DNA of 33,148 nucleotides from a virus (Duplodnaviria; Heunggongvirae; Uroviricota; Caudoviricetes). Made by a program: the position numbers and the translations under genes. Of this stretch, positions 1 to 25,723 are shown piece by piece. The notes under the pieces were generated by a model. It was not told where the DNA came from. It did no database searches and worked only from the letters and a program-made list of their open reading frames with translations. Numbering within the stretch: the stretch's first letter is position 1; every line of letters begins with the position of its first letter. The stretch lies in IMG/VR virus record IMGVR_UViG_2681813271_000008, one strand, 5' to 3'.

Positions 1-181
1 CTGGTTGTCTGGAGATTCAGGGGGCCAGTCTACCACCCCTGATGTCAGGTAGGAAAACACCATATGTTTCTGCTCTGTTTTTCCTTAGAAATAGGCATCC
101 TTGCTGGAACAAAGCGAGCAGCTATATTGACTCTATGTTGTGAGTGTGTTGATCCGTTCTGAGTTAATACATTTAAGTTGC

Positions 182-1291
182 TCACTCTGTTTCTGCTATC
201 CATTCCGGGATTTTTGCCTCAAGCTCAAGCTGCGTGGTAAAGCCGCTGTTATCAATGGTGTGCTCGGCTTTTGCAATAATCCAGTCCTGATTATCAATCT
301 CGCTTTTAAATCCTGTTACCGTGCCATGCATTTCGGGGTAGAGTTCTGCACGTCCATGCGCCAGTGTGATGGAGAATGATGCGGCTCCGCGTTGTAGCTG
401 CTGCCACTTTGCCGCCGCTGCACGTCTTGCTGCCTGCTCGTTCTGATAAGTTTTGCGTAACACAAACACGTTGCCTTCCGCACCTTCCATATAGTCGCCT
501 TCCCGGCTGCTGCTTTTCTCCTTTTTTGGTTTTGACGGTTTGCGGCGTTTCACGCTGACTTTTTTCTTTTTCCCGTAATTAAGATCAAGCCAGTAAGCGC
601 GTACCCCCGTATACGCTTCGCGGTCAGCAATGCGGAACTGATGGCGATCGCCGCTGCTGCGTGTGATGGCGAACGAGGGCAACGGCTGGCCCTGTGCGTT
701 CACGCCACCACCGGGCATGATGAATAACAGATTACCGCTTTTTACCGTGGTGATTGCGCCCAGCATTTCCGCCATGCGCGTAAGGAAGGACATGTCGCTT
801 TCTTCGGTCTGGTCGGCGTGGTCGATTTCGATATCCATCAGCATTTCGCTGATTTGCGGTTTCAGACCATACCGATGAGCGATGGCGGATACCACACGCT
901 CAACGGTCACATCATGCCAGGACACCTCACGTTTAACGTTAAATTCAGCCCGAAAATCTGCGCTTCTGGCTGAAACAGTCAGCCTGTCCGGCGGTCCTTC
1001 GTGAGCGATTTCATCAACAATGTAAGTGCCTTTTTCTGTCAGCGGTTCTCCCTTCCAGCCAATGAGAACCGTCAGGCGCGCGCCCCGTGGCGGTAGCTGC
1101 AACTGACCATCCGCATCATCCAGCGTGATGGTGAGCTGGTCCGCCTCAAATCCCCGGTTGTCGGTCAGTGACAGGCTCATCAGGCGCTCTGCCACGCCTG
1201 ACAGCGTTTTACCCTCCGCGAGAATATCAAAATCCGGCATTTTCACGGGGTCTGTGCCCTGACTGAGCAATTGCATGGTGGTGTCGGTCAT
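182..1291 (-). CDS. D: Tail protein D (P2 gpD-like late-control D family)
   Basis: ORF track frame 182..1423; start placed at the internal ATG encoding MTDTT, which is preceded by GGAGGGAG. About 370 aa, lysine-rich internal stretch. Assigned from recalled gpD similarity and position at the end of the tail gene set. Confidence 0.7.
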   Translation of the reverse strand: MTDTTMQLLSQGTDPVKMPDFDILAEGKTLSGVAERLMSLSLTDNRGFEADQLTITLDDADGQLQLPPRGARLTVLIGWKGEPLTEKGTYIVDEIAHEGPPDRLTVSARSADFRAEFNVKREVSWHDVTVERVVSAIAHRYGLKPQISEMLMDIEIDHADQTEESDMSFLTRMAEMLGAITTVKSGNLLFIMPGGGVNAQGQPLPSFAITRSSGDRHQFRIADREAYTGVRAYWLDLNYGKKKKVSVKRRKPSKPKKEKSSSREGDYMEGAEGNVFVLRKTYQNEQAARRAAAAKWQQLQRGAASFSITLAHGRAELYPEMHGTVTGFKSEIDNQDWIIAKAEHTIDNSGFTTQLELEAKIPEWIAETE

Positions 1292-1448
1292 CTGCTCCCT
1301 CCCTGTGTGGCATGGTCGCATGTGCGTGCGGAGGGGGTTACTGCTTTTTGTTGTCGCCGTGGCGGGAGAATGGCGCAGGGGTGAGATTACGCGCGTGGTG
1401 GGTGATGATTGTTGCCGAATCATTTAACGGATACAAGGGGTTGAAGCT

Positions 1449-2633
1449 ATGAGTGAAACTCGTTTTCATGGTGCCCGTGTTACGGAAAATACCGACCTGG
1501 TAACAGCGATTAACGATGTTGATTCCAGCGTTATCGGTATCGTGGCAACGGCGGATGATGCGGACGCGGAGCTGTTCCCGCTGAACAAGCCCACACTGCT
1601 GCCCCGCGTCAATGACGTGCTGGGAAAATGCGGAACAACGGGGACGCTTTATCGTGCGCTTAAGGCCATCGCAGACCAGGTGAGCACAAAGGTGATCGTC
1701 GTTCGCGTGGCTGAACACAAAGAAGAAGACGGAAAAACGCAGGATCAACTGGTTATCGGTGGTTCTGAATCTGACGGCAGCTATACGGGGATGTATGCGC
1801 TGCTTGTTGCAGAGCAGGATGAAAGCATCGGATACCGTCCGCGTATTCTGGCCGCGCCGGAGCTGGACACGGAGGCGGTGACAAAATCCCTGTGCGTGAT
1901 TGCGGGTAAACTGCGCGCGTTTGTGTATGCCTCATGTCATGACTGTAACACGATGGCTGAGGCAATTACCTACCGCCAGAAATTCAACGAACGTGAGGTG
2001 ATGCTCTTATGGCCGGACTTCATCGCCTACAACCCGAAAAGTGGCAAAAACGAAACGTTCCCCGCGCCTGCCTATGCGTGCGGCCTTCGTGCGTACATTG
2101 ACCATGAGCAGGGCTGGCACAAATCGCTGTCCAACGTTCCGGTTAAAAATGTGCTGGGGATGTCCAGGCATGTGTTCTGGTCGTTGCAGGCCGAAGACAG
2201 TGATGCCAACAGCCTCAACAACAAAGAAATCACGACCATTATTCGTCGCAACGGGTTCCGCTTCTGGGGCAACCGCACACCGGAAACGAACGCCTACATC
2301 TTTGAGGTGTATACCCGAACCGCACAGGTGCTGGCTGATTCAATTGCGGAAGCGCAGTTTGAAACCATCGACAGTCCACTGACGCCTGCGAACGTGAAGG
2401 ATGTTATCGGTGCCATCAGGGCAAAACTGGATTCACTGGTTACTGCCGGGAAACTGATTGGGGCGTCGTGCTGGTATGACGTGGTGGATAACGGCACCAC
2501 GAATTTACGTCAGGGGCGCGTGCGTATTCGCTACAAATATACGCCTGTTCCCCCGCTGGAAGACATGGAGCTTTACCAGTCGTTTACTGATGAATTCTTT
2601 GGTCCCGCATTTGCGGTGCTGGGAGGTGCCTGA
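1449..2633 (+). CDS. FI: Contractile tail sheath protein (P2 gpFI-like)
   Basis: 394 aa ORF, AAGGGG RBS upstream; length and position match P2 FI; followed by tube, chaperone and tape-measure genes. Confidence 0.85.
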   Translation: MSETRFHGARVTENTDLVTAINDVDSSVIGIVATADDADAELFPLNKPTLLPRVNDVLGKCGTTGTLYRALKAIADQVSTKVIVVRVAEHKEEDGKTQDQLVIGGSESDGSYTGMYALLVAEQDESIGYRPRILAAPELDTEAVTKSLCVIAGKLRAFVYASCHDCNTMAEAITYRQKFNEREVMLLWPDFIAYNPKSGKNETFPAPAYACGLRAYIDHEQGWHKSLSNVPVKNVLGMSRHVFWSLQAEDSDANSLNNKEITTIIRRNGFRFWGNRTPETNAYIFEVYTRTAQVLADSIAEAQFETIDSPLTPANVKDVIGAIRAKLDSLVTAGKLIGASCWYDVVDNGTTNLRQGRVRIRYKYTPVPPLEDMELYQSFTDEFFGPAFAVLGGA

Positions 2634-3145
2634 TGGCTGTACCAAAACATCTTCGCTTTTTTACGCTGTTTGTGGATGGTGAAAACGAAGTGGGTAAGGT
2701 GACGTCCGTCACTCTGCCTAAGCTGACGCGCAAAACCGACAGCTACCGGGGTGGTGGCATGATGGGAGCGGTAAGTATTGATCTCGGCCTGGATGACTCC
2801 GCGCTTGATGCGAGCTTTGTCATGGGGGGCGCAGTTCGTGAGCTGTTCCTTAAGTATGGCGGCACGATTGACGGTACGCTGCTGCGTTTTGCGGGTGAAT
2901 ACTACACCGACGCTGAAAGCGACCTGTATGAAGTCGAAATGCGCGGACGTGTGACGGAAATTGATATGGGGGAAGCCAAACAGGGCGAAGCCACATCACA
3001 CACTTACGCCATTAAAAACACCTACTACAAGCTGAGTGTTAACGATCGCCCGTTGTGGGAGATTGACCTGCTGAACTTCATTTACCGGAAGGACGGCAGG
3101 GACATTGTGCCCGATCGCATCCGTTCCGCGCTCGGGCTTGGCTGA
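2633..3145 (+). CDS. FII: Tail tube protein (P2 gpFII-like)
   Basis: 170 aa ORF; its ATG overlaps the FI stop (TGATG) and follows GGGAGG; size matches P2 FII. Confidence 0.85.
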   Translation: MAVPKHLRFFTLFVDGENEVGKVTSVTLPKLTRKTDSYRGGGMMGAVSIDLGLDDSALDASFVMGGAVRELFLKYGGTIDGTLLRFAGEYYTDAESDLYEVEMRGRVTEIDMGEAKQGEATSHTYAIKNTYYKLSVNDRPLWEIDLLNFIYRKDGRDIVPDRIRSALGLG

Positions 3146-3199
3146 TAAGTAATATGCAGGCGGCGCAGTGCGTCGCCTCTGACTGAAAGGAGTTTCCTG

Positions 3200-3565
3200 A
3201 TGAAAGAGACGAAAAACATCGATACCGAAAACACGGTCGTTGCTGACACTGTGAAAGAAACCAGTGAGCGTGGCGTAAAACTTACCCAACCAATTGAGCG
3301 AGGCGGCGAAAAAATCACGTATGTGGAGATCACCGGGGCTATTGAGCAGGCTGGATCTCTGCGAGATTTGTCGCTGTCTGATGTGCTGAATTTGAAAGCG
3401 GAATCCATGTTTACGCTGCTGTCACGCGTGACATCACCGCGACTGGATGAAGTGACGATCAAAAAAATGGCATCCCGTGACTTTATTCAGTTATGTGTGG
3501 TTGCCGTAAATTTTTTGAGCGGTGCGGACTCTGGCGAGAAGAACGAACAGGCGACGGAAGCCTGA
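3200..3565 (+). CDS. E: Tail assembly chaperone (P2 gpE-like)
   Basis: 121 aa ORF between tube and tape-measure genes; contains the slippery heptamer used for the E+E' product. Confidence 0.7.
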   Translation: MKETKNIDTENTVVADTVKETSERGVKLTQPIERGGEKITYVEITGAIEQAGSLRDLSLSDVLNLKAESMFTLLSRVTSPRLDEVTIKKMASRDFIQLCVVAVNFLSGADSGEKNEQATEA

Positions 3566-3729
3566 TCACGGTTGTGTGCTTTGAGCACATAGAAGACTTT
3601 GTGGCGGATATTGCCGCCATTTTTAACTGGTCGCCCGCCGAAATCTTCATGATGACGCCCGGCGAAGTGGTTAGCTGGCGTGAGCGGGCGGCACTTCGCA
3701 GCGGGAATGCAGACAATGAAGACTCTTGA
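3200..3729 (+). CDS. Tail assembly chaperone E+E' (predicted -1 programmed frameshift product)
   Basis: Slippery T_TTT_TTG at 3511..3517 sits in the E zero frame (codons TTT TTG); a -1 slip enters the 3493..3729 ORF, which ends just inside the tape-measure start. Analogous to P2 E/E'. Confidence 0.6.
3511..3517 (+). other. Slippery heptamer TTTTTTG for the E/E' -1 frameshift
   Basis: Heptamer read directly; it lies in the overlap between the E frame and the -1 frame ORF. Confidence 0.6.
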
Positions 3730-6523
3730 TATCCGGGTCGCTTTCAGCGCCGTTGACAGGCTGACCCGGCCTGCCGAAAACGCCCGCCGCCTGATGGGGC
3801 AGTTTGGTGACTCCATCCAGCGAACGCAGGGGGCGATCAAAAATCTCGAGCGTCAGGCGCGTTCATTTGAGCGCGCCCGTGACGCTGTCAGTAAAGCGGA
3901 TGCGGGCATCGTGAAAGCACGACGCCAGCTTAACGCCCTTAATCAGTTACAACGCACGGGTACAGTGCTCAGCGAAAAACAACAAAAGCTGATGCAGCAG
4001 TTAAGCACCCGGCTTGAACGCCTGAATGAATCGCGCACACGGGAAATTCAGAAAATGCGGGAACTTGGCGGAGAGCTGAAACGCCACGGCATTTCCCTGA
4101 CAGGCAGCGATAACACCATCCAGCAGGCCATCAGACGCACCGGACAATACAACAACCAGCTTGAACGCGAACGGCGGGCGCTTGCGCGTGTAACGCAGGC
4201 GCGTGAGCGGTATTCACGCGCGCAGGAAACAGCGGGAAAACTGAAAACAGGTGGTGCGCTGGCAACAGGTGCGGCGGCAGCGGGCGGCTATGCTGCCGGG
4301 CGTTTTTTGCAGCCCGCTATCGGGTTCGGGAAAGAGATGTCCCGTGTTCAGGCACTGACGCGAATCGATAAAAACAGCCCGCAGTTTAAGGCGCTGCGTG
4401 AGCAGGCGTTAAAACTTGGCTCTGAAACGCAGTTCACCGCAGGCGATGCCGCCAGTGGACAGGCATTTCTTGCAATGGCTGGTTTCACACCGCAGGCCAT
4501 TCAGGCTGCGCTTCCCGGCGTGCTGAGCATGGCAACGGCTGGCGGTATGGACCTCGGCGAGACGGCGGATATTGGTTCCAATATCCTGACGCAGTTCGGC
4601 CTCTCTGCTGACCAGATGGACCGGGTCGGTGACACACTTACCGCAGCGTTTACCCGTACCAACACTGACCTTCGCGCACTGGGCGAAACCATGAAATATG
4701 CAGGTCCGGTGGCGGGTAAGCTGGGAATATCGCTGGAGCAGGCCGCAGCGATGGCGGGCGTGCTGGCGAAGATGGGTATCAGGGGGAGTGATGCAGGTAC
4801 AGCGTTGCGTAAAAGCCTGGCCAATCTGTCATCACCGCCAAAGGCAGCGGCAGAAGCACTGAAAGAGCTGGGGGTGTCAGTTGCTGACGCCAAAGGCAAA
4901 ATGCGCCCGATGGAGAATGTGCTGGCCGATCTCTATAAAGCCACCCGCAAATACGGGGAGGTTGACCGGGTATCGTTCTTTAAGGACATTGCCGGAGAAG
5001 AGGCTTTCACATCATTTATGGGCCTCGTTGATGCGGCAGGTGACGGCTTCTTAGCCAAACTGAGAAAAGAACTTGAAGGCGCGCGCGGTGAGGCAGAACG
5101 CACGGCAAAGGTTATGGCCAATAACCTTGATGGCAACCTGAAATCACTCGGCAGTGCATGGGAAGGTCTGCGTATTCGCATCAGTGATCTGGTTGACGGT
5201 CCGCTGCGTTCTGTCACGCAGTGGCTCACGCGGGTTGTCTCAAAGGTGACGGCGCTGGCGCAGGCCCACCCGGCACTGACGCGCCAGTTACTGATAGCGG
5301 GAGGCGCACTGCTGGCGACAACAGCAACGGTTGGTTCGTTGTCTCTGGTTATTGGGGTGCTTCACGGGAAGCTGGCTACGTTGCGTCTCGGTTTTTCTCT
5401 CCTGACCGAATCAATGAATGTTGTCAGGGTTCTGCCTGCATTATGGGGAATGGTGACGGGTTCCGTTTCTTTACTTGGTGGCGCTATCGGGGCGCTGTTC
5501 AGTCCGGTTAGTCTTATCGTGGCTGCGCTTGCCGGAGCTGCCGTTCTTATCTGGAAATACTGGGATCCCATCAGGGCATTTTTTGCCGGGGTGTTCAGCG
5601 GGATTATGGAAAGGCTGACCCCGTTGCGCGAAACCTTTGAACGGTTTGGCCCTGTTTTTGATGTCGTGCGCGATGGGATTATTCAGGTCTTTAACTGGTT
5701 TAAATCGCTGCTGTCACCGATGGAGTCCAGCAAGGAAACGCTGGATAAATGTGCCAGTGCTGGCGAGATATTCGGTAACGTTCTTGGCGGTGCGTTACAA
5801 CTTGTTCTGACACCTGCAAAAATGCTACTGGATACGCTGGCGTGGATACTTGAAAAACTTGGCGTCCTTCCGGATGAAGCGGAAAGGGCGCGCAAGAAAA
5901 TCGAAGACGCACAGCGTGCGGCCATTCTTCAGGACAAGGTTGCCTTGCTTCAGGGGGACCTGGCGAAAATCAATCCGCCGAAGCCTGTGGAAAATGGCAA
6001 TGGCACCGGAGGTGATAAACCCAAAGACAACAAACCGCTCACAGACAGCAATACCGGGACGCTACGCAGACTCAGCAAAATTGCTGATAACACAGGTAAG
6101 CTGGTTGATGAGACGAAAAAACGCATTGGCCCCGGCGATATTGTCTTTAAGAACCTGCCCCGCGCACTTGCTGTTCGTGGGGAGTGGCAGGAGCGGAAGA
6201 TTGCGCAGGTCAGTAAGCCTGCCCCCGCAATTAATATCACACCCGTGGTCCCGGCTCCGCTGCCTCCGGCGCTGGTCCCTGTTGTTGCGGCCAGCTCCCG
6301 CCCGGTGGCGGAGGCCATACGCTCTCCAGTGGCATCAGTTCCTGTAACTTCCCGTAACCGGGAGCCTGTTGCCTCCGGATTTGGTGGTGAAATTCATGTT
6401 CATCTGCATAACGTTGTTACGCAGAATCCCCGCGAACTGGCGAAACTGGTCGGTGAAATGGTCAGGGCAGAAATGGAACGGCGCGCCCGTGCCGGGCGTG
6501 GCAGTTTTTACGATAAAGATTGA
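3716..6523 (+). CDS. T: Tail tape measure protein (P2 gpT-like)
   Basis: Long ORF (frame open from 3680), coiled-coil-rich N-terminus and Gly/Ala-rich hydrophobic central segments typical of tape-measure proteins. Start uncertain: ATG at 3707 or 3716, the latter has better GGGA spacing. Confidence 0.85.
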   Translation: MKTLDIRVAFSAVDRLTRPAENARRLMGQFGDSIQRTQGAIKNLERQARSFERARDAVSKADAGIVKARRQLNALNQLQRTGTVLSEKQQKLMQQLSTRLERLNESRTREIQKMRELGGELKRHGISLTGSDNTIQQAIRRTGQYNNQLERERRALARVTQARERYSRAQETAGKLKTGGALATGAAAAGGYAAGRFLQPAIGFGKEMSRVQALTRIDKNSPQFKALREQALKLGSETQFTAGDAASGQAFLAMAGFTPQAIQAALPGVLSMATAGGMDLGETADIGSNILTQFGLSADQMDRVGDTLTAAFTRTNTDLRALGETMKYAGPVAGKLGISLEQAAAMAGVLAKMGIRGSDAGTALRKSLANLSSPPKAAAEALKELGVSVADAKGKMRPMENVLADLYKATRKYGEVDRVSFFKDIAGEEAFTSFMGLVDAAGDGFLAKLRKELEGARGEAERTAKVMANNLDGNLKSLGSAWEGLRIRISDLVDGPLRSVTQWLTRVVSKVTALAQAHPALTRQLLIAGGALLATTATVGSLSLVIGVLHGKLATLRLGFSLLTESMNVVRVLPALWGMVTGSVSLLGGAIGALFSPVSLIVAALAGAAVLIWKYWDPIRAFFAGVFSGIMERLTPLRETFERFGPVFDVVRDGIIQVFNWFKSLLSPMESSKETLDKCASAGEIFGNVLGGALQLVLTPAKMLLDTLAWILEKLGVLPDEAERARKKIEDAQRAAILQDKVALLQGDLAKINPPKPVENGNGTGGDKPKDNKPLTDSNTGTLRRLSKIADNTGKLVDETKKRIGPGDIVFKNLPRALAVRGEWQERKIAQVSKPAPAINITPVVPAPLPPALVPVVAASSRPVAEAIRSPVASVPVTSRNREPVASGFGGEIHVHLHNVVTQNPRELAKLVGEMVRAEMERRARAGRGSFYDKD

Positions 6524-6529
6524 GGAGTC

Positions 6530-7024
6530 ATGGCCATGATGATGATCTACGGCATGTTTGTTTTTGAGCTGCGTACATTGCCGCATCAGCAGTTACAGCA
6601 AAACAAAAGCTGGCGGCATGTGAAAAATGAACGCGTTAACCGTTCGGCAAGCTGGCAGTATATCGGTGCAGGTGATGAGCGCATCGTTCTTTCTGGTGTG
6701 CTTTATCCTGAAATTACAGGTGGCGAAGTGTCGCTGTCGCTGCTGACCACGCAGGCGTATACAGGACGACCCTGGCCTCTGATTGATGGCGTCGGGCAGA
6801 TTTACGGCATGTATGTCCTGACCGAAACGAATACGACCCGCTCCGAGTTTGATCGCTACGGTAAGGCGAAAAAGATAGAATTTTCACTGACTCTTGAACG
6901 CTGTGATGAGGATTTGCGGGAGCGCCTGCAATCCTCATCGTTCAGCGATATGCTGTCCGGCTTCAAAGATAAGGTAACATCATCCCTTAACAGCGCGGCC
7001 AGTTCAGTTAAAGGGTTGTTCTGA
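6530..7024 (+). CDS. U: Tail protein U (P2 gpU-like)
   Basis: 164 aa ORF immediately after the tape measure; N-terminus MAMMMIYGMFVFELRTLP resembles P2 U. Confidence 0.8.
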   Translation: MAMMMIYGMFVFELRTLPHQQLQQNKSWRHVKNERVNRSASWQYIGAGDERIVLSGVLYPEITGGEVSLSLLTTQAYTGRPWPLIDGVGQIYGMYVLTETNTTRSEFDRYGKAKKIEFSLTLERCDEDLRERLQSSSFSDMLSGFKDKVTSSLNSAASSVKGLF

Positions 7025-7036
7025 TTTAACACAAAA

Positions 7037-7070
7037 ACCGCTAATGGTCAGATTAGCGGTTATTTTGTTT
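7037..7070 (+). terminator. Rho-independent terminator after U
   Basis: Stem ACCGCTAAT / ATTAGCGGT with a 6-nt loop, followed by TATTTTGTTT. Confidence 0.6.
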
Positions 7071-7134
7071 CCTGACTCTTCTCTATTGTTCCGATTGATT
7101 CTCCTGCGGGGTGGTAACGATAAATCGTCGATAT

Positions 7135-7454
7135 NNNNNNNNNNNNNNNNNNNNNNNNNNNNNNNNNNNNNNNNNNNNNNNNNNNNNNNNNNNNNNNNNN
7201 NNNNNNNNNNNNNNNNNNNNNNNNNNNNNNNNNNNNNNNNNNNNNNNNNNNNNNNNNNNNNNNNNNNNNNNNNNNNNNNNNNNNNNNNNNNNNNNNNNNN
7301 NNNNNNNNNNNNNNNNNNNNNNNNNNNNNNNNNNNNNNNNNNNNNNNNNNNNNNNNNNNNNNNNNNNNNNNNNNNNNNNNNNNNNNNNNNNNNNNNNNNN
7401 NNNNNNNNNNNNNNNNNNNNNNNNNNNNNNNNNNNNNNNNNNNNNNNNNNNNNN
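7135..7454. other. Assembly gap (320 N) inside the invertase locus
   Basis: Run of N read directly. Confidence 1.
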
Positions 7455-7612
7455 ATTAATTCCTCGCTCCCGTAGTTCCCCGACGAGAGAAATCAGATGT
7501 TTCATGCTTCGCCCGAGGCGATCCAGTTTCCAGACAACCAGCGTGTCACCTTTTTGAAGGCGCTTTAAAGCGCGTTTTAATCCCGGTCGGTCTGTCTTTG
7601 TCCCGCTTAATT
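7455..7612 (-). CDS. Serine DNA invertase (Gin/Cin/Pin family), internal fragment between N-runs
   Basis: Translation [52 protein letters not shown] matches my recollection of Mu Gin residues about 34-85; flanked by N gaps on both sides. Confidence 0.8.
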
Positions 7613-7792
7613 NNNNNNNNNNNACGTGCTGCGGCATAATCCCAATGATTACTCCCTGACAGGGTTCGTAGGCCACTCAATATCAGGTGCAGTTGATGTA
7701 TCAACACGGTTCAGCAACACCCGATACTTTTTCTAGGCTTCCACCACCAGCACGACAAGATGCCGCATACAGTGACCCAGTCAGTCCAGTTT

Positions 7793-7975
7793 TCAGACAA
7801 CCAGTGCGTCACCTTTTTGAAGGCGCTTTAAAGCACGTTTTAATCCAGGTCGGCCTGTCCTTGTTCCGCTTAATTTATCTTCAAATATTTGTTCATATCC
7901 TGCACAAACAAGAGCGTTTCGTTGCAGGTCTGTATTCTGGTCATTTGTTGATACCCTTACATAGCCAATCAGCAC
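7793..7975 (-). CDS. Serine DNA invertase N-terminal fragment (catalytic-serine region), prematurely terminated
   Basis: From a GTG start after [65 protein letters not shown] then a stop; unrelated sequence follows. Confidence 0.8.
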   Translation of the reverse strand: MLIGYVRVSTNDQNTDLQRNALVCAGYEQIFEDKLSGTRTGRPGLKRALKRLQKGDALVV

Positions 7976-8029
7976 GCTGAATCTCCCGTCCAAAAGCGCA
8001 AATCATGCCATGCAGGCCGGAAACGGCCA

Positions 8030-8055
8030 TTATCTAAAACCTCGGTTTACAGGAA
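8030..8055. other. gix-like inversion crossover site (left)
   Basis: TTATCTAAAACCTCGGTTTACAGGAA closely resembles the Mu gix site as I recall it, and is an inverted copy of the site at 11452..11477. Confidence 0.75.
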
Positions 8056-9066
8056 ACGGTAAACAAGGCTGGTAACGCCGTGCAAAAAAATGGCGATACG
8101 TTGTCCGGTGGACTTACTTTTGAAAACGACTCAATCCTTGCCTGGATTCGAAATACTGACTGGGCAAAGATTGGGTTTAAAAATAATTCGGATGCAGACA
8201 CCGATTCCTACATGTGGTTTGAAACAGGCAACAACGGCAATGAATATTTCAAATGGAGACACCGCATCATTGGCACCCGGCCTAAAGACCTGATGAATCT
8301 TAAATGGAATGCTTTGTCTGTTCTTGTTGAAGCCCTTTTCAGCAGTGAAGTGAAAATATCGACAGTCAATGCACTGAGGATATTTAATTCATCTTTTGGT
8401 GCCATTTTTCGTCGTTCTGAAGAATGCCTGCATATCATCCCTACACGAGAGAATGAAGGGGAAAATGGTAATATAGGGCCACTACGCCCCTTTACGCTTA
8501 ATCTCAGAACTGGCCGGATAAGCATGGGGCATGGTCTTGATGTTACAGGGGATATATTTGCAAACCGTTTTGCAATTAACAGTAGTACCGGCATGTGGAT
8601 TCATATGCGTGACCAGAATGTTATTTTGGGACGTAATGCGGTATCCACTGATGGTGCTCAGGCTTTGCTCCGTCAGGACCATGCCGACCGCAAATTTATG
8701 ATTGGCGGTCTGGGAAATAAGCAATTTGGCATCTACATGATTAATAACTCAAGGACAGCCAATGGCACCGATGGTCAGGCGTACATGGATAATAACGGGA
8801 ACTGGCTTTGCGGCTCGCAAGTTATTCCCGGCAACTATGGCAATTTTGATTCCAGATATGTGAAAGATGTTCGACTTGGTTCACAGCAATATTATGGAGT
8901 GAACAACTGGCAAACATGGAATTTTCAGTGCCCGTCAGGCTATGTACTGACGGGGATTAACGTACAGGATACCGGAAAAAACTCTGCCGATAATATTGCA
9001 GGCGTTCATTACAGGCCAGTGCAAAAGTATATAAATGGCACTTGGTATAATGTGGCGAGTATTTAA
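8038..9066 (+). CDS. Alternative tail-fibre C-terminal (variable) cassette, promoterless, in-frame with the crossover site
   Basis: Frame is open from 8038 through the crossover core codons LGL; ORF track calls 8080..9066. Shares [13 protein letters not shown] and INGTWYNV motifs with the C-terminus of H. No independent N-terminal domain. Confidence 0.75.
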
Positions 9067-9488
9067 TATGATGCACTTAAAGAACATAAAAGCAGGTAAT
9101 GCTAAAACAGTGGAGCAGTATGAGTTAACAAAGAAGCACGGAGTCATCTGGCTTTACTCTGAGGACGGAAAAAACTGGTATGAGGAAGTGAAGAACTTTC
9201 AGCCAGACACAATAAAGATTGTTTACGATGCAAATAATATTATTGTCGCCATCACCAAAGATGCCTCCACGCTTAACCCTGAAGGTTATAGCGTCGTTGA
9301 GGTTCCTGATATTACAGCTAATCGTCGTGCTGATGATTCCGGTAAGTGGATGTTTAAGGACGGAGCTGTGGTTAAACGGATTTATACGGCTGACGAACAG
9401 CAACAACAGGCCGAATCACAAAAGGCCGCATTGCTTTCCGAAGCTGAATCAGTCATCCAGCCGCTGGAACGCGCTGTCAGGCTGAATA
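9035..9488 (+). CDS. Tail fibre assembly protein (Tfa / gpG-like), 3' end cut by an N-run
   Basis: About 75% identical to the next Tfa gene and similar to the minus-strand G; overlaps the end of the alternative fibre cassette. Confidence 0.75.
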
Positions 9489-9495
9489 NNNNNNN

Positions 9496-9978
9496 GAACA
9501 ATACCAGCTAACTAAAAAAGCGGGCGTGGTATGGCTCTTTTGCGAAGATGGCAAAAACTGGTATGAGGAACAAAAGAATTTTCAGCCAGACACCATAAAA
9601 ATTGCTTACGATGAGAACAACATCATCGTTGCTGTCAGTAAAGACGTTTCAACTATTAATCCTGAAGGGCTAAGCATAGTTGAAGTTCCTGATATTACGG
9701 CAAATCGTCACGCAGACAATAACGGAAAATGGATGTTTCTGGATGGTAAAGTAGTAAAGAGGGAATATACAGAACAGGAACTGCAACAACAGGCCGAATC
9801 ACAAAAGGCCGCATTGCTTTCCGAAGCTGAATCAGTCATCCAGCCGCTGGAACGCGCTGTCAGGCTGAATATGGCAACAGACGAGGAACGCACACGACTG
9901 GAAGCATGGGAACGCTACAGTGTTCTGGTCAGCCGTGTGGATACGGCAAATCCTGAATGGCCACAAAAGCCTGAATAA
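9496..9978 (+). CDS. Second tail fibre assembly protein (Tfa), 5' end lost in an N-run
   Basis: Frame open from the gap ([15 protein letters not shown]...); the ORF track's GTG at 9526 is internal. Shares an identical stretch of about 88 bp with the 3' end of the previous Tfa. Confidence 0.75.
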
Positions 9979-9983
9979 AAATT

Positions 9984-10003
9984 AAGGCCCGATAGCGGGC
10001 CTT
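9984..10003. terminator. Hairpin between convergent Tfa genes (likely bidirectional terminator)
   Basis: AAGGCCCG ATAG CGGGCCTT perfect 8-bp stem; T-rich run follows on the minus strand. Confidence 0.5.
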
Positions 10004-10006
10004 CTC

Positions 10007-10540
10007 TCATTCTGGTTGTTCGGGAAACGTTACTGGCAGGCTGGAGGTGTCTGTGGATTCAACCTTCTGCGCATAGAGCATCCACTCGGTTAATTTTTGT
10101 TTATTCTCATCGGAAATGATGCCCAGCTGTAGCTGAGAGTCCCACAGCTGGGTTTTATCCCTGACGAGCTGCAGCAGGCTCTGCTTTTCATTTTCCGCTT
10201 GTTGCCTTTGCTCTTCCTCGGTATAAGTTCGCTTTATCACCGCACCATCTTTGAACATCCAGTTGCCCGAAATATCAGCCCGGCGATTTGCTGTAATATC
10301 AGGCAACTCAACGACACTTAAACCTTCTGGATTAATTGCTGATACATCCTTGTCTATAGCAATAATTATTCCCTCAACTGTGTAAGCCAGTTTTATTGTA
10401 TCCTCCTGAAAGTTTTTTAATTCCTCATGCCAATTTTTTCCATCTTCGGACCATAACCAGATAACATCAAAATTCTTTGTTAGCTGGTATTGTTCAACGG
10501 TTTTTGGATTACCTGCGACAATGTTTTTTAAATGCTGCAT
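10007..10540 (-). CDS. G: Tail fibre assembly protein G (P2 gpG-like)
   Basis: 177 aa ORF directly downstream of the tail-fibre gene; homologous to the plus-strand Tfa ORFs. Confidence 0.8.
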
Positions 10541-10542
10541 GA

Positions 10543-10692
10543 TTATACCTGCGATACGTTATACCATGTTCCGTTAATTAACTTTTGTATTGGTCTGAAT
10601 ACTGCCGGATCATCACCATCGACTTCACCGATAATACCAAGCCCCGTGATTACATGGCCTGATTTTTCATACATCACGCCTTTCTTCATGGT
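10543..10692 (-). other. In-frame continuation of tail fibre H beyond an amber codon (49 codons, conserved C-terminus)
   Basis: Same frame as H after the TAG at 10693..10695: [49 protein letters not shown], then TAA 2 nt before the G start. Aligns with the C-terminus of the alternative cassette. Confidence 0.6.
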
Positions 10693-12477
10693 CTAAACAA
10701 CTCGTGTGCCAAGTCTGACATCTCTCACATAGCGGGAATCAAAGTTACCGTAATCCGAGGGATTAACACGTCCCGTAATATTTATGGTTTTATTACTTTG
10801 AATGCTTCCGGAGACAAAGCGCATAACATGGACGTTATTAGCATAAACATCCAGATTACCATCGCCTTTTTGTTTAAAGCCCGTGTCATTATCACCCAAT
10901 ACAATCGAATTACCGCCAAGAGCACTGGATGTTCCGATACCCAGTGCACCATTCAGTTGACCACCAGATAACGGCAGTGCACCAACATCTCCTGCTGAAG
11001 GTTTTCTGGTGGTGTAAAATTCGGACCAGTCGGCTTCAAAACCATAACCATCACGGGCTGAACGATAAAAAATACCGCCATTTTTATAATTAATCCGAAA
11101 CTGAGCTGCAGGACAACTTCCTTCTCCCATATAAAAATGAATAATTAACGTTGATGCACCACTAATAGTTGCGTTATAGGCTCCGCTACTCCAGTTCCAT
11201 CCAACTGCTTTATCATTCGCAACGGTGCTTCCTGTTTTCCCTAAGGCAAACGCACCAACATGACTTGCTTTTAATGTGATATCGGAGGAACCATCAAAAG
11301 CCACATTGCTTATTTTCCTGGCAGTTTTTAATTTTGCAGCTGTAGAAGCATTGCCGGATAGTTCACCAGAAAGGCCACCGCTGAATGTTTGTCGATTAGT
11401 CCAGGTATTCGCTGTACTGAGTAACGGTATTTTCTCCCCGCTTGTGCCGAGTTCTCGTAAACCGAGGTATTCGATAACGGCAGCAACGGTCGATTTCGCA
11501 AGAATATCCCGCCCGACTTTTGTCAGGGTTGCCAGGCTGGCGACATCATTCCCCGTAAAATACGGAAACTTGCCTGCCGCAGTAGTAAGTCCGGCCAGCG
11601 CCGTCAGGGTGGCATCTTTCGGTTGCTTACCCGCAAGCGCGTTAGTCATGGTGGTCGCAAAATTCGGGTCGTTGCCCAGCGCCGCCGCCAGCTCGTTCAG
11701 TGTGTTCAGTGCATCAGGCGAAGAGTCTACAAGTGCGGCAATCGCAGCCATAACGAAAGCCGTGCTTGCGATTTGGGTATTATTCGTTCCCTGTCGCGCA
11801 GTTGGTGTTGTTGGCGTTCCGGTCAGTGCCGGGCTGTTTAATGGGGCTTTCTTGTTCGTTTCATCCATTACTGCCTTAACGGCTTTTGGTGTCGCTGCCA
11901 GCGTTTCAGACGTGCTGTTGGTGGCGTTGCTGAGCTGGACAAGGCCTTTTGCGGTCAGCGAGGCGTCCGGGTGACGTCGTGACTGTTCATGCTCTTTCAG
12001 TTTGTCATCCACGTAATTCACTGTGGCCATCACCATGGTGTTATCCACGGTAAGCGCCACAGTGGCAGTGCTGGATACGGTCAGAATGGTGCGAAATGTT
12101 TGTGCACGTCCGGATCCTTCGGCAACGGTTGGCTTGTAACTTTCGGCAGTATTGCCTACCGCGATCAAATCGCCGTGCTCATCAAACACACCAATTTCCC
12201 GGATCCAGAATCCGCCCGTTTCAGGAGGAATAACCAGCTCCGCAATAATGTGGTTCTGATGTGTTGCGTCCAGGGTGACGCGATTAACGGTATGTCGCCA
12301 CACCTCATGCACAAGACGGGTCTGCTTACTGTCTGGCGTGGGTAAAGTACCGCCGCCGTCACCCACGGCCATATGTGTCAGGCGGACAGGTTTCCCATCT
12401 GGCGCGGTTGCCTGCGCTAATTTTTTTGCACCCGTATCGGTGATAATGGTTTTAAATTTTCGTGTTGTGGTACTCAT
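10693..12477 (-). CDS. H: Tail fibre protein H (P2 gpH-like), interrupted by an in-frame amber codon
   Basis: 594 aa ORF. Constant N-terminal part runs from 12477 to the crossover site near 11452..11477 (EYLGL); variable part follows. Stop TAG at 10693..10695 lies inside a conserved C-terminal region. Confidence 0.85.
   Translation of the reverse strand: MSTTTRKFKTIITDTGAKKLAQATAPDGKPVRLTHMAVGDGGGTLPTPDSKQTRLVHEVWRHTVNRVTLDATHQNHIIAELVIPPETGGFWIREIGVFDEHGDLIAVGNTAESYKPTVAEGSGRAQTFRTILTVSSTATVALTVDNTMVMATVNYVDDKLKEHEQSRRHPDASLTAKGLVQLSNATNSTSETLAATPKAVKAVMDETNKKAPLNSPALTGTPTTPTARQGTNNTQIASTAFVMAAIAALVDSSPDALNTLNELAAALGNDPNFATTMTNALAGKQPKDATLTALAGLTTAAGKFPYFTGNDVASLATLTKVGRDILAKSTVAAVIEYLGLRELGTSGEKIPLLSTANTWTNRQTFSGGLSGELSGNASTAAKLKTARKISNVAFDGSSDITLKASHVGAFALGKTGSTVANDKAVGWNWSSGAYNATISGASTLIIHFYMGEGSCPAAQFRINYKNGGIFYRSARDGYGFEADWSEFYTTRKPSAGDVGALPLSGGQLNGALGIGTSSALGGNSIVLGDNDTGFKQKGDGNLDVYANNVHVMRFVSGSIQSNKTINITGRVNPSDYGNFDSRYVRDVRLGTRVV
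11452..11477. other. gix-like inversion crossover site (right, inside H)
   Basis: Reverse complement TTATCGAATACCTCGGTTTACGAGAA matches the 8030..8055 site at 22 of 26 positions; the core CTC GGT TTA encodes LGL in the H frame and in the alternative cassette frame. Confidence 0.75.
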
Positions 12478-18019: not shown

Positions 18020-18093
18020 NNNNNNNNNNNNNNNNNNNNNNNNNNNNNNNNNNNNNNNNNNNNNNNNNNNNNNNNNNNNNNNNNNNNNNNNNN
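18020..18093. other. Assembly gap (74 N) between L and M
   Basis: Run of N read directly. Confidence 1.
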
Positions 18094-20910: not shown

Positions 20911-21031
20911 GATGGCAAAGCGTAACAGGCTGATACAAAGGGCTTTTGTTGTAAGAAAACGGCCAGAACAGGGGGTTAAGGAGAACGGTTTCGCGCGCGG
21001 GTAATCTTCCTGTAATTACTCAGGGGGAGCA

Positions 21032-22849
21032 ATGATTCAGGACGCTTTTGTGCGCCAGCGTGCGCGGCAACTTTACTGGCAGGGTTATCCGCCCGCAGAA
21101 ATATCACGTCTGATGGGAATAAACCCGAACACGATTTATGCGTGGAAAAAACGCGACCAGTGGGATGAAACGCCACCCGTGCAGCGTGTCACGCAGTCCA
21201 TCGATGCGCGCCTCATCCAGCTTACTGAAAAACAGAATAAAACAGGTGGTGACTTTAAGGAAATAGANNNNNNNNNNNNNNNNNNNNNNNNNNNNNNNNN
21301 NNNNNNNNNNNNNNNNNNNNNNNNNNNNNNNNNNNNNNNNNNNNNNNNNNNNNNNNNNNNNNNNNNNNNNNNNNNNNNNNNNNNNNNNNNNNNNNNNNNN
21401 NNNNNNNNNNNNNNNNNNNNNNNNNNNNNNNNNNNNNNNNNNNNNNNNNNNNNNNNNNNNNNNNNNNNNNNNNNNNNNNNNNNNNNNNNNNNNNNNNNNN
21501 NNNNNNNNNNNNNNNNNNNNNNNNNNNNNNNNNNNNNNNNNNNNNNNNNNNNNNNNNNNNNNNNNNNNNNNNNNNNNNNNNNNNNNNNNNNNNNNNNNNN
21601 NNNNNNNNNNNNNNNNNNNNNNNNNNNNNNNNNNNNNNNNNNNNNNNNNNNNNNNNNNNNNNNNNNNNNNNNNNNNNNNNNNNNNNNNNNNNNNNNNNNN
21701 NNNNNNNNNNNNNNNNNNNNCGATGTGGAGCTGAAAGGGGGCGATAAAATCATCCTCTCCAACGGCGCAGAGATGCATTTTCTCGGCACTTCTGCTGCGA
21801 CGGCGCAATCTTACACGGGCAATTTTTATTTTGATGAATTTTTCTGGGTCAGTCGCTTTGCTGAACTGCGCAAGGTGGCTGGCGCTATGGCAACCCTCAG
21901 CGGACTGCGGCGCACCTGCTTCTCCACGCCATCCACCGAAACGCACGAGGCATACGCCTACTGGAACGGCGACCGCTGGAACGAGAAAAAGGCCGCGCAT
22001 AAACGCCAGCGTTTTTCTGTGGACTGGAAAACGCTGCATAACGGGCTTATCTGCCCTGACCGGACGTGGCGGCAAATTGTCACGCTGGAAGATGTGGTTA
22101 ATCACGGCTGGAAACACACCGATATTGATGAAATTCGTGATGAAAACACCGAAGACGAGTTCCGCAATCTCTATATGTGTGAGTTTGTCCGCGAAGGGGA
22201 ATCGGCATTTAACCTGAATATCCTGATTGGCTGCGGTGTTGACGGATACGACGACTGGAAAGACTGGAAACCCTTTGCCCCCCGCCCGATGGGGAATCGT
22301 CCGGTATGGATTGGGTATGACGCAAACGGCAGCAGTGGTAACGGCGACAGCGGCGCTGTGTCCGTGGTGGTTCCTCCGGCTGTTCCTGGTGGTCGTTTCA
22401 GAACGGTGGAGACGCGACGCGTTCAGGGGCTGGAATTTGAAGAGCAGGCCAGAGTTATTGAAGAGTTCACGTATCGCTACAACGTGGAACACATCGGCAT
22501 TGATGCGACGGGAGGGCACGGGGATGCCGTCTATCAGATAGTGAAACGGTTTTTTCCCGCCGCCATCCCTTACACCTTCACGCTGTCATCAAAACGGTCG
22601 CTGGTACTGAAAATGCTGCAAATAATGCGTGCCGGGCGGTGGGAATACGATCGCGCCGAACGCGAGCTGGTTGCGGCCTTTAACGCCGTGCGTAAGGTGA
22701 AAACACCGGGCGGTTTTATCACTTACGAAACGGACCGCGCGAGGGGGATCAGCCACGGCGACCTTGCGTGGGCAACCATGCTTGCTGTCATTAACGAACC
22801 GATTGGCGGCGAAGGAGAAAACGAGCGTTTCACGGTTATGGAGTTCTGA
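21032..22849 (+). CDS. P: Terminase large (ATPase) subunit P (P2 gpP-like), interrupted by a 453-N gap
   Basis: 605-codon frame open across the N-run; N-terminal and C-terminal parts present; divergent from O as in P2. Confidence 0.8.
   Translation: MIQDAFVRQRARQLYWQGYPPAEISRLMGINPNTIYAWKKRDQWDETPPVQRVTQSIDARLIQLTEKQNKTGGDFKEIXXXXXXXXXXXXXXXXXXXXXXXXXXXXXXXXXXXXXXXXXXXXXXXXXXXXXXXXXXXXXXXXXXXXXXXXXXXXXXXXXXXXXXXXXXXXXXXXXXXXXXXXXXXXXXXXXXXXXXXXXXXXXXXXXXXXXXXXXXXXXXXXXXXXXXXXDVELKGGDKIILSNGAEMHFLGTSAATAQSYTGNFYFDEFFWVSRFAELRKVAGAMATLSGLRRTCFSTPSTETHEAYAYWNGDRWNEKKAAHKRQRFSVDWKTLHNGLICPDRTWRQIVTLEDVVNHGWKHTDIDEIRDENTEDEFRNLYMCEFVREGESAFNLNILIGCGVDGYDDWKDWKPFAPRPMGNRPVWIGYDANGSSGNGDSGAVSVVVPPAVPGGRFRTVETRRVQGLEFEEQARVIEEFTYRYNVEHIGIDATGGHGDAVYQIVKRFFPAAIPYTFTLSSKRSLVLKMLQIMRAGRWEYDRAERELVAAFNAVRKVKTPGGFITYETDRARGISHGDLAWATMLAVINEPIGGEGENERFTVMEF
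21268..21720. other. Assembly gap (453 N) inside terminase P
   Basis: Run of N read directly. Confidence 1.
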
Positions 22850-24586: not shown

Positions 24587-24826
24587 CTATTTACTCTTCT
24601 CGGCCCTCAAAATCATACGAGAACCATCATCCAGCTCCCAATTAATTTCACCGCCTTCTGCCATGACTAGATGCCAAACGAGTTGAGCGGCCTCGTTGGT
24701 TACATCGCGACCGCGATCATTTCCTACGCGGCGTTTTGTTCCGTCTCCTAAGTCACGCATTTTTGCCAATACGATGGTTTTTGATAGCGGTGAAAAACCA
24801 AGCTGTAGTCGTGCTGAATTACTCAC
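24587..24826 (-). CDS. Hypothetical protein (79 aa)
   Basis: ORF whose start overlaps the stop of the upstream 174-aa ORF by 4 nt; 14 bp ahead of the 61-aa gene. Confidence 0.5.
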   Translation of the reverse strand: MSNSARLQLGFSPLSKTIVLAKMRDLGDGTKRRVGNDRGRDVTNEAAQLVWHLVMAEGGEINWELDDGSRMILRAEKSK

Positions 24827-25347
24827 TGGCTGCCCCCTTTGTACTGTGTTAACTCTTCCTGCTCCTGCATCATGCGATTGACCTGAACGCGTGTGCGTCG
24901 AACGGCAAAATTAAATTGAAACATGAGCCGGAACATTTCTGATGCTTCCGTGTGAGCATCACGGATAGGTGACAGGCGGTACAGTTCTGCCTCCGTAGCT
25001 TGTTGAATCAATGACAGATCAAATTGAAGTGCGGGTCTGGTACATTTTGCACATCTGGCAGCAAGCTCCGGTATTAGTCTCTTAACGAAGGTGTTTTGCA
25101 CCGCTTTGTTGATTTGTGTCTGCATCCAAATCGCAAATTTCAGCGAACGCATAAGTTTGATAGCCTCGGGCAGCGGCAGATAGATCATGCTGGTAGATTT
25201 GGGTGGTTGGTGAACCATCTTCACGGATACGCGATTTCGCAGCGTTCGGAAAATCGTGTTCCCAACAACAGCTTCTACGGATACAGGACAGGGAGCCAGA
25301 CCAGCCCGCAGTGCTTCTTTCATTAGCATGTATTCGTATTTTTTCAT
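24823..25347 (-). CDS. Hypothetical protein (174 aa)
   Basis: ATG preceded by GAGGAA, 60 bp downstream of parR; no family recognised. Confidence 0.55.
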   Translation of the reverse strand: MKKYEYMLMKEALRAGLAPCPVSVEAVVGNTIFRTLRNRVSVKMVHQPPKSTSMIYLPLPEAIKLMRSLKFAIWMQTQINKAVQNTFVKRLIPELAARCAKCTRPALQFDLSLIQQATEAELYRLSPIRDAHTEASEMFRLMFQFNFAVRRTRVQVNRMMQEQEELTQYKGGSQ

Positions 25348-25407
25348 CGTGTTTTCCTCGTGCGGGGCGACAGTGCACCCCGATAAAATTAAAAGCCGTC
25401 AAATTCG

Positions 25408-25719
25408 TCATTCAGGAAATAATGCCCGGATATTCCCTGCTATCTGACTGGTTATCTGTGCGGTTGGTACTGGCTGTGGCACGGGGCGTTCTGTCCTGGT
25501 TTGTGTCACCGATAACGCCTCATCGTCAGCCCATGCAGCCAGTCGGTAAGCCTCTGCTGGATTCATTTTCAGAAGTGCCAGCCCGGCCAGAAAAGCCACG
25601 CGTTGGCCGCTTTTGCGGGCTTCTGGTGTAAGGCTGCCCAGCCAGGCGCATGCTTCGCTTTCGTTCTTGACGGCCGCAGGCTTCAGATAGAAACTTATCC
25701 GTCTGGTTGGTGTCGTCAT
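25408..25719 (-). CDS. parR: ParR-like partition adaptor (DNA-binding)
   Basis: Start ATG 25717..25719 after AGGAG, 5 nt beyond the parM stop; RRISFYLKPAAV...SGQRVAFLAGLALL resembles my recollection of R1 ParR (RRTIAFKLNPDV...NRAALTAGLALY). The longer track ORF overlaps parM. Confidence 0.65.
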   Translation of the reverse strand: MTTPTRRISFYLKPAAVKNESEACAWLGSLTPEARKSGQRVAFLAGLALLKMNPAEAYRLAAWADDEALSVTQTRTERPVPQPVPTAQITSQIAGNIRALFPE

Positions 25720-25723
25720 TGGT

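What the first reader, a model, noticed from the sequence alone, without database searches (positions are those of the whole stretch)
1292..7134. Sheath-to-U tail block is inverted relative to D and to canonical P2 gene order
Everything else follows P2 order on the expected strands, but FI-FII-E-T-U reads on the plus strand, divergent from D, and U is followed by its own terminator. In P2 (as I recall) these genes and D form one operon on one strand. The sequence from 1 to 7134 contains no N, so the D/FI divergence is not explained by a flipped scaffold piece. It is either a genuine rearrangement with D separately transcribed or a chimeric contig.
Basis: partly seen in the sequence, partly recalled or inferred. 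Interest (0 to 1): 0.5.

Follow-up and report, generated by a model that had tools for sequence, protein, structure and literature searches.

The report
Lineage-typical inverted tail operon, P88-like prophage
The sheath-to-U tail genes really do face away from gene D, but this is the normal, inherited gene layout of a large, well-sampled group of P2-like phages (phage P88 and relatives, present in a quarter of complete E. coli genomes), not an assembly error or a new rearrangement.

Summary
D (182-1291, minus strand) and FI-FII-E/E'-T-U (1449-7024, plus strand) are divergent, and U is followed by a hairpin terminator.

The layout is not special to this genome.
- Window 171-7132 matches phage P88 (genus Xuanwuvirus) in one colinear piece at 96.4% identity.
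- The D/FI junction is contiguous in 1356 of 5426 complete E. coli genomes.
- The same layout is annotated in Citrobacter phage Shae_phiSM and Salmonella phage SEN5.
- Of 80 loci with a D homologue, all 60 inverted ones have D 59-98% identical to the window's; they span about 29 genera.
- All 16 scorable loci with the P2 order have D at 50-54% identity.
- The inverted loci form one clade in both the D and FI trees, so this was one ancient inversion.

The 157-bp D/FI spacer holds a P2-type late-activator dyad (TGT-N12-AGA, 1352-1369). It sits at the P2 pF distance from FI. Hexamers resembling a -10 promoter element start exactly 35 nt beyond it on both strands, and this is conserved across the clade. 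I infer one shared Ogr-type site driving two divergent late promoters, as at P2 pP/pO.

There is no sign of chimerism or of a reversible inversion. Interest is low.

The parts
182..1291 (-). Gene D (tail/baseplate hub, 'late control D'), 369 aa. The start ATG at 1291 is preceded by GGGAGGGAG.
   Evidence: Pfam PF05954. 48% identical to P2 gpD over 370 aa. 99% identical to a protein cluster of 6052 E. coli sequences.
1292..1448 (.). 157-bp divergent D/FI control region.
   Evidence: Sequence. Conserved blocks across 54 non-identical relatives.
1352..1369 (.). P2-type late-activator dyad TGTCGCCGTGGCGGGAGA (TGT-N12-AGA, one mismatch to TGT-N12-ACA). Its centre at 1360.5 is 88.5 nt from the FI ATG and 69.5 nt from the D ATG.
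   Evidence: 55 of 60 inverted-layout sequences carry the dyad with at most 1 mismatch (30 perfect), 77.5-89.5 nt upstream of FI. The P2 pF site lies 83 nt upstream of FI.
1404..1409 (+). Hexamer GATGAT resembling a -10 promoter element, for the predicted FI-side late promoter. The transcription start is predicted near 1416-1418.
   Evidence: A hexamer with A at position 2 and T at position 6 starts exactly 35 nt after the dyad in 98% of 54 non-identical relatives. P2 pF has the same geometry.
1312..1317 (-). Hexamer GACCAT resembling a -10 promoter element, for the predicted D-side late promoter. The transcription start is predicted near 1303-1305.
   Evidence: The mirror-image position, 35 nt beyond the dyad on the D strand, carries such a hexamer in 89% of 54 relatives.
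1449..2633 (+). FI, tail sheath.
   Evidence: Pfam sheath domains. 45% identical to P2 FI.
2633..3145 (+). FII, tail tube.
   Evidence: Pfam Phage_tube, E 1.9e-46.
3200..3729 (+). E (3200-3565) and E+E' tail assembly chaperones. A -1 frameshift at TTTTTTG (3511-3517) leads into the frame that ends at 3729.
3716..6523 (+). T, tape measure. The ATG at 3716 corresponds to the P88 annotation; the open frame begins at 3680.
6530..7024 (+). U, tail protein.
   Evidence: Pfam Phage_P2_GpU.
7031..7068 (.). Hairpin of a bidirectional intrinsic terminator between U and the convergent invertase gene.
   Evidence: I17; -16.1 kcal/mol, z -3.6.
7083..7676 (-). DNA invertase gene (serine recombinase), interrupted by N runs at 7135-7454 and 7613-7623.
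   Evidence: Pfam Resolvase. P88 gp43 'DNA invertase'.
8026..11481 (.). The invertible DNA of this region: a tail-fibre segment bounded by inverted crossover sites at 8026-8055 and 11452-11481. The sites match a Gin/Cin-type 26-bp consensus recalled from memory.
   Evidence: I5. (25 and 22 of 26 matches to that consensus). The segment is flipped relative to P88.
20946..20968 (.). The second copy of the same motif (TTGTTGT-N12-AGAA), in the divergent O/P (capsid/terminase) control region.
   Evidence: the only two matches in the window, even with 1 mismatch allowed.

Best explanation
The window is a P88-like (Xuanwuvirus, Peduoviridae) prophage. In this phage lineage the segment carrying the pF promoter and FI-FII-E/E'-T-U was inverted once, long ago, relative to the P2 order. 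D, and ogr beyond it, were left in place. The arrangement has been inherited ever since and is compatible with fully functional phages.

After the inversion the palindromic Ogr-type activator site of pF lay directly upstream of D. I infer that this single dyad now serves two divergent late promoters. One drives FI-U rightwards and ends at the bidirectional terminator after U. The other drives D leftwards (and, in relatives, ogr). This is the design P2 already uses for its divergent pP/pO pair.

Shown: the layout, its distribution, its single origin, and the conserved dyad with symmetric hexamers resembling -10 promoter elements.
Inferred: activator binding, transcription starts and Ogr dependence.
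For: Not an artefact:
- One colinear match of 171-7132 to P88 at 96.4% identity.
- The same gene table in P88, Shae_phiSM, SEN5 and E. coli O111 RM9322.
- The junction is contiguous in 1356 of 5426 complete E. coli genomes.
- P88 and PhiSM are reported as active phages (PMC5285337; PMC6456863).

A single ancient event:
- Among 80 loci with D homologues, all 60 inverted loci have D 59-98% identical to the window's.
- All 16 scorable loci with the P2 order have D at 50-54% identity.
- The inverted loci are monophyletic in neighbour-joining trees of D (62/62) and FI (61/61) rooted on phiCTX, which has the P2 order.
- D and FI identities co-vary, r = 0.957.
- Identities to P2 are alike for the block (FI 45%, U 47%), for D (48%) and for the rest of the virion genes (41-54%).

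Regulation:
- The dyad TGT-N12-ACA (at most 1 mismatch) lies at the pF-like distance from FI in 55 of 60 sequences.
- Hexamers resembling -10 promoter elements start exactly 35 nt beyond the dyad on the FI side in 98% of sequences and on the D side in 89%. All other offsets give at most 17%.
- The same motif occurs at the O/P spacer.
- P2 annotates one activator site for both pP and pO, with transcription starts 55-56 nt to either side.
- TGT-N12-ACA and the four Ogr-dependent late operons are described in PMC3931495.
Against: - No transcript data exist, so the D-side promoter rests on conservation only.
- Its predicted leader is short, about 13 nt.
- The right half-site in the window is AGA, not ACA. 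Five relatives have 2 or more mismatches or a different dyad.
- The loose dyad pattern alone is common in the window (144 matches with at most 1 mismatch). Its specificity therefore comes only from position and cross-species conservation.
- ogr itself is not inside the window: homology to P88 stops at 174.
- The 80 loci were the best-scoring 80 of 421, so the sample is biased towards relatives of this D.
Confidence: 0.85

Rival explanations
1. Assembly artefact: a chimeric contig or a flipped scaffold piece created the D/FI divergence.
For: The window is a scaffold with six N runs, one of them right after U. The N-run lengths do not equal the corresponding P88 lengths, and a 91-nt duplication flanks the small gap at 7613-7623. 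Local scaffolding is therefore imperfect.
Against: The D/FI junction lies inside an N-free stretch. It is identical in layout to complete genomes of isolated phages and to 1356 complete E. coli chromosomes. The N-free stretch also contains the 3' end of the invertase gene convergent with U, as in P88. The sequence after the gap continues colinearly with P88.
Confidence: 0.01
2. The FI-U block is a reversible, invertase-driven switch (phase variation), caught here in one of two orientations.
For: A DNA invertase gene lies directly next to U. An active invertible segment exists 1 kb away and is flipped relative to P88.
Against: - No inverted repeat flanks 1292-7082.
- The best matches to the 26-bp crossover consensus (recalled from memory) at the two junctions are 14 and 15 of 26, within background. 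The fibre-segment sites score 25 and 22.
- Orientation is invariant in all 63 loci and phages of the clade, including many without an invertase gene.
- Orientation is also invariant in essentially all E. coli genomes that carry the junction.
Confidence: 0.02
3. Module exchange: the tail block was acquired from another phage in reversed orientation, rather than inverted in place.
For: P2-like phages are mosaic, and tail-operon rearrangements occur in other P2-like phages such as Smp131 (PMC3931495).
Against: - The block, D and the remaining structural genes are about equally distant from P2.
- The D and FI trees give the same clade, and their sister groups are both made up of P2-order loci that largely overlap.
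- D and FI identities co-vary, r = 0.957.
- The pF dyad-to-FI spacing is retained.
An in-place inversion is the more economical reading. A swap from a very close relative cannot be excluded.
Confidence: 0.08

Closest known systems
Escherichia phage P88 (Xuanwuvirus P88, NC_026014) and close relatives: PhiR44_2, 520873, 500465-2, P884B11, Chuche, Citrobacter phage Shae_phiSM
   Same: 94-97% nucleotide identity over most of the window, with identical gene order and strands. This includes D divergent from FI, the invertase next to U and the invertible fibre segment.
   Different: - The fibre segment is in the opposite orientation, and the fibre and chaperone sequences differ (70-85% identity).
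- Homology downstream of D stops at 174. P88 has an unannotated ogr there. In strains such as O111 RM9322, a PIN-domain cargo gene sits between D and ogr.
- Parts of the early region differ.
Bacteriophage P2 F operon (pF-FI-FII-E-E'-T-U-D, then ogr)
   Same: Orthologous genes at 32-48% identity, the E/E' -1 frameshift, T overlapping E', and an activator dyad about 83-88 nt upstream of FI.
   Different: In P2 the D gene overlaps the end of U and is transcribed with it. Here FI-U is inverted, ends at its own terminator, and D is divergent from FI.
P2 pP/pO divergent late promoter pair with one shared Ogr site
   Same: A single dyad midway between two divergently transcribed late operons, with equal spacing to each side. 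P2 transcription starts lie 55-56 nt from the site centre. Here the hexamers resembling -10 elements lie 35 nt beyond the dyad on both sides.
   Different: The genes served are different (D and FI rather than P and O). The function here is inferred, not measured.
Salmonella phage SEN4/SEN5 (Senquatrovirus)
   Same: The same inverted layout, J I H G | U T E FII FI (reverse strand) | D, in a second ICTV genus. Its D is 62.5% identical.
   Different: No invertase gene lies between G and U, and it is far more diverged. Its paper reports 0% average nucleotide identity to P2 (PMC5261728).

Membership tests
Xuanwuvirus (P88-like P2-type phages, Peduoviridae) | High nucleotide identity and colinearity with P88 across the genome | tested here: met
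   Colinear blocks at 91-97% identity cover most of 174-31615. Lower identity is confined to the fibre segment. Window 171-7132 matches in one piece at 96.4%.
Xuanwuvirus (P88-like P2-type phages, Peduoviridae) | P2-type virion gene set (Q P O N M L X R S V W J I H G FI FII E T U D) | tested here: met
   tblastn with P2 proteins finds all of them.
Canonical P2 F operon | FI-FII-E-E'-T-U-D on one strand, with D immediately after U | tested here: not met
   D is on the minus strand upstream of FI.
Ogr/Delta-dependent P2-type late promoter | TGT-N12-ACA dyad centred about 55 nt upstream of the transcription start | tested here: inconclusive
   The dyad is present with one mismatch at 1352-1369, at the pF-like distance from FI. 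It is conserved in 55 of 60 relatives, with hexamers resembling -10 elements at a fixed offset on both sides. Transcription starts were not measured.
Ogr/Delta-dependent P2-type late promoter | An Ogr/Delta-type zinc-finger activator encoded by the element | tested here: inconclusive
   No ogr lies within the window. It lies just downstream of D on the D strand in 57 of the 60 inverted genomic loci, in P88 (unannotated) and in E. coli RM9322. Here it is probably beyond the left edge of the window.
Ogr/Delta-dependent P2-type late promoter | Activator-dependent transcription late in infection | not testable with these tools
   This needs RNA mapping or reporter assays.
Gin/Cin/Pin-type invertible segment (as a reading of the FI-U block) | Inverted crossover sites at both ends of the segment | tested here: not met
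   No flanking inverted repeat. The junctions match the 26-bp consensus (recalled from memory) at 14 and 15 of 26 positions, which is background. The fibre-segment sites score 25 and 22.
Gin/Cin/Pin-type invertible segment (as a reading of the FI-U block) | Both orientations found among closely related genomes | tested here: not met
   Only one orientation occurs in 63 loci and phages and in about 1356 E. coli genomes.

The most novel reading that the evidence does not exclude
The ancient inversion placed the palindromic pF activator site next to D, and a new leftward promoter evolved there. One Ogr-type dyad would then drive both the FI-U operon and a separate D(-ogr) unit. As far as I could find, this bidirectional late promoter has not been described in text for this clade. 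The layout would also be a clean shared-derived marker for a large branch of Peduoviridae that includes at least Xuanwuvirus and Senquatrovirus.
Probability: 0.6. Interest if true: 0.3.

Novelty: already known. Interest (0 to 1): 0.12.

Why it matters
It matters little for discovery. The layout is the norm in a phage lineage that is already sequenced, classified and present in about a quarter of complete E. coli genomes. The practical value lies in three points.
1. This gene order should not be flagged as a misassembly or used as evidence of chimerism in P2-like prophage calls.
2. The D/FI orientation is a simple, apparently homoplasy-free marker that separates a large clade of Enterobacterales P2-like phages from P2 proper.
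3. The conserved, symmetric control region makes a small, directly testable prediction: how an operon inversion can be tolerated by re-using a palindromic activator site in both directions.

Tried and rejected
- **Flipped scaffold or chimera:** rejected using P88 and complete genomes.
- **N runs as masks of equal length:** the N-run lengths differ from the corresponding P88 stretches (320 vs about 258, 453 vs about 389, 74 vs about 35). They look like estimated scaffold gaps. This does not affect the finding.
- **Invertase-mediated or reversible inversion of the block:** no flanking inverted repeats and no crossover-site remnants.
- **Foreign origin of the block:** rejected on uniform divergence from P2 and congruent D and FI trees.
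- **Longest-ORF start-codon assignment in relatives:** it over-extended in the GC-rich spacers and gave meaningless distances. I replaced it with homology-anchored FI starts and dyad-anchored offsets.
- **Window-only scan for the dyad plus hexamers resembling -10 elements:** not specific, with 144 loose dyads. Only cross-species conservation carries weight.
- **Sigma-70 consensus scan:** it found nothing in the D/FI spacer, as expected for activator-dependent promoters with poor -35 regions.
- **Literature:** the P88, PhiSM, SEN4/5 and a 2026 P2/P4 hotspot paper do not mention the inversion in their text. The xenorhabdicin xnp1 paper (PMC3133312) is not held.
Full report
**Observation**

The window carries D on the minus strand (182-1291). 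FI (1449-2633), FII (2633-3145), E/E' (3200-3565, extended to 3729), T (3716-6523) and U (6530-7024) lie on the plus strand. Pfam assigns Phage_GPD, sheath domains, Phage_tube, PhageMin_Tail, Phage_P2_GpU and Phage_P2_GpE. tblastn with P2 proteins gives the same assignments and strands.

The E/E' -1 frameshift site TTTTTTG lies at 3511-3517, and T overlaps the end of E' as in P2. U is followed by a hairpin at 7031-7068 (-16.1 kcal/mol, z -3.6). It has an A-run before it and a T-run after it, so it is a bidirectional terminator between U and the convergent invertase gene at 7083-7676.

**Is it an artefact?**

No. Window 171-7132 aligns in one colinear piece to the complete genome of Escherichia phage P88 (genus Xuanwuvirus, Peduoviridae) at 96.4% identity. 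It aligns at 93.6-96.4% to eight other phage isolates or induced prophages.

The P88 annotation shows the same arrangement: V W J I H G | G' H' | invertase | U T E' E FII FI on the opposite strand | D. Citrobacter phage Shae_phiSM has it too.

A 1-kb probe across the D/FI junction (900-1900) is contiguous in 1356 of 5426 complete E. coli genomes. One is E. coli O111 RM9322, where the prophage sits next to ihfA.

The N-free stretch also contains the 3' end of the invertase gene convergent with U, as in P88. The sequence after the 7135-7454 gap continues colinearly with P88. P88 is inducible and lytic, and PhiSM is spontaneously active (PMC5285337; PMC6456863). The layout is therefore compatible with a working phage.

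**How old and how widespread is it?**

I aligned D with 11 database homologues and P2 D. I then fetched 80 genomic loci with 10-kb flanks from one genome per species and located D, FI, FII, E, T, U, V, W, J, I, G, ogr and the invertase in each by tblastn.

- All 60 inverted loci have D 59-98% identical to the window's. They come from about 29 genera: Salmonella, Citrobacter, Enterobacter, Klebsiella, Kosakonia, Serratia, Erwinia, Pantoea, Pectobacterium, Brenneria, Symbiopectobacterium, Edwardsiella, Hafnia, Yersinia, Providencia, Morganella, Xenorhabdus, Photorhabdus, Aeromonas and others.
- Their order is ...J I (H G) [invertase] U T E FII FI on one strand, then D and ogr on the other. tblastn found ogr just after D in 57 of the 60.
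- All 16 scorable loci with the P2 order have D at 50-54% identity.
- Salmonella phage SEN5 (Senquatrovirus) also has the inverted order. phiCTX of Pseudomonas has the P2 order.
- In neighbour-joining trees rooted on phiCTX, the inverted loci form one clade with no P2-order member: 62/62 for D and 61/61 for FI.
- D and FI identities co-vary with r = 0.957.
- The block (FI 45%, FII 42%, U 47%), D (48%) and the other virion genes (Q 47%, N 41%, V 46%, J 54%) are about equally distant from P2.

The economical reading is one ancient in-place inversion of pF-FI...U that has been inherited since. It is not a module import and not a recent event.

**Is it a reversible switch?**

No evidence supports this. 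No inverted repeat flanks the block. The best matches to the 26-bp crossover consensus at the two junctions are 14 and 15 of 26, which is background.

The invertible element of this region is the tail-fibre segment. It is bounded by the inverted sites at 8026-8055 and 11452-11481, which score 25 and 22 of 26. That segment is flipped here relative to P88. Many members of the clade lack an invertase gene yet keep the inverted FI-U block.

**How D is probably expressed**

The 157-bp spacer contains TTGTTGT-N12-AGAA at 1348-1370, that is, the dyad TGT-N12-AGA at 1352-1369. The only other match in the window, even with one mismatch allowed, lies in the divergent O/P control region at 20946-20968.

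TGT-N12-ACA is the published consensus of the four Ogr-dependent late promoters of P2 (PMC3931495). P2's own pF and pP/pO sites also have an imperfect right half, CCA.

- Of 60 inverted-layout sequences, 55 have the dyad with at most one mismatch, and 30 are perfect. It is centred 77.5-89.5 nt upstream of the FI ATG, with a mode of 82.5 and 88.5 in the window. The P2 pF site is 83 nt upstream of FI.
- I anchored 54 non-identical sequences on the dyad. A hexamer with A at position 2 and T at position 6 starts exactly 35 nt beyond the dyad on the FI side in 98% of them, and on the D side in 89%. No other offset from 25 to 49 exceeds 17%.
- In the window these hexamers are GATGAT (1404-1409, plus strand) and GACCAT (1312-1317, minus strand).
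- P2 pF has its -10 element 36 nt beyond its dyad.
- P2 annotates a single activator site for both pP and pO, with transcription starts 55-56 nt to either side.

From this I infer that the inversion brought the palindromic pF activator site next to D. It would now serve two mirror-image late promoters: FI-U rightwards, and D leftwards followed in relatives by ogr. The conservation and geometry are shown. Binding, transcription starts and Ogr dependence are inferred.

Several points weaken the inference. The predicted D leader is short, about 13 nt. The loose dyad pattern on its own is common in the window. ogr is not inside the window: homology to P88 and L005 ends at 174. In strains identical over 31-420, a PIN-domain cargo gene separates D from ogr.

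**Comparison with what is known, and verdict**

The element is a member of Xuanwuvirus by identity and colinearity with P88. It fails the test for a canonical P2 F operon because D is on the other strand. It fails both tests for an invertible segment.

The layout is visible in public annotations of P88, SEN4/5 and PhiSM and in thousands of prophages, so it is already known as data. I found no text that comments on it. The shared-activator-site reading may be undescribed, but it is a modest variation on P2 pP/pO.

Interest is low.

Noticed in passing
window 8026-11481: Invertible tail-fibre segment bounded by inverted crossover sites (8026-8055 and 11452-11481) that match a Gin/Cin-type consensus recalled from memory. 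It holds alternative fibre C-termini and two opposed tail-fibre assembly genes (9526-9978 plus strand, 10007-10540 minus strand). It is in the opposite orientation to P88, so the switch has flipped between these genomes.
   Followed up: partly
window 7455-7875: The 5' part of the invertase gene is present twice. Positions 7522-7612 and 7785-7875 are 91% identical direct copies, separated by an 11-N gap and 161 nt absent from P88. This is either a scaffolding artefact (two invertase paralogues collapsed) or a real partial duplication. The invertase ORF may not be intact here.
   Followed up: partly
window 1-181: Homology to P88 stops 8 nt after the D stop codon, at 174. No ogr gene lies in the window. 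Positions 31-420 are 100% identical to E. coli strains in which a 1.5-kb PIN-domain gene lies between D and ogr, a cargo or defence hotspot (O111 RM9322: D, PIN, ogr, hok, ihfA). Positions 1-40 match a widely repeated sequence, annotated as IS2 or near NleG genes in other records.
   Followed up: partly
L004 (P88, NC_026014) 34476-34634; L002 (Shae_phiSM): Annotation slips in public records. P88 has an unannotated ogr homologue just downstream of D. In Shae_phiSM the product names are shifted by one gene: D is labelled 'ogr' and the sheath 'late control gene D protein'. RefSeq labels the tube protein 'head closure'.
   Followed up: no
L006 (NZ_JBQPOM010000071.1, 'Vagococcus sp. WN89Y'): A prophage with D 98% identical to this E. 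coli-type one sits in an assembly labelled as a Gram-positive Vagococcus. This is probably contamination or a mislabelled assembly. It also has about 1.5 kb inserted between D and ogr.
   Followed up: no
window 7135-7454, 18020-18093, 21268-21720: The N-run lengths (320, 74, 453) do not equal the corresponding P88 stretches (about 258, 35, 389). They behave like estimated scaffold gaps rather than exact masks. The runs fall inside the invertase gene, at the M/L boundary and inside terminase gene P.
   Followed up: partly
window 24823-26683 and P88 8856-10131: The lineage carries ParM and partition-like genes after the replication gene A, which P2 lacks. I saw this only in the P88 annotation.
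   Followed up: no
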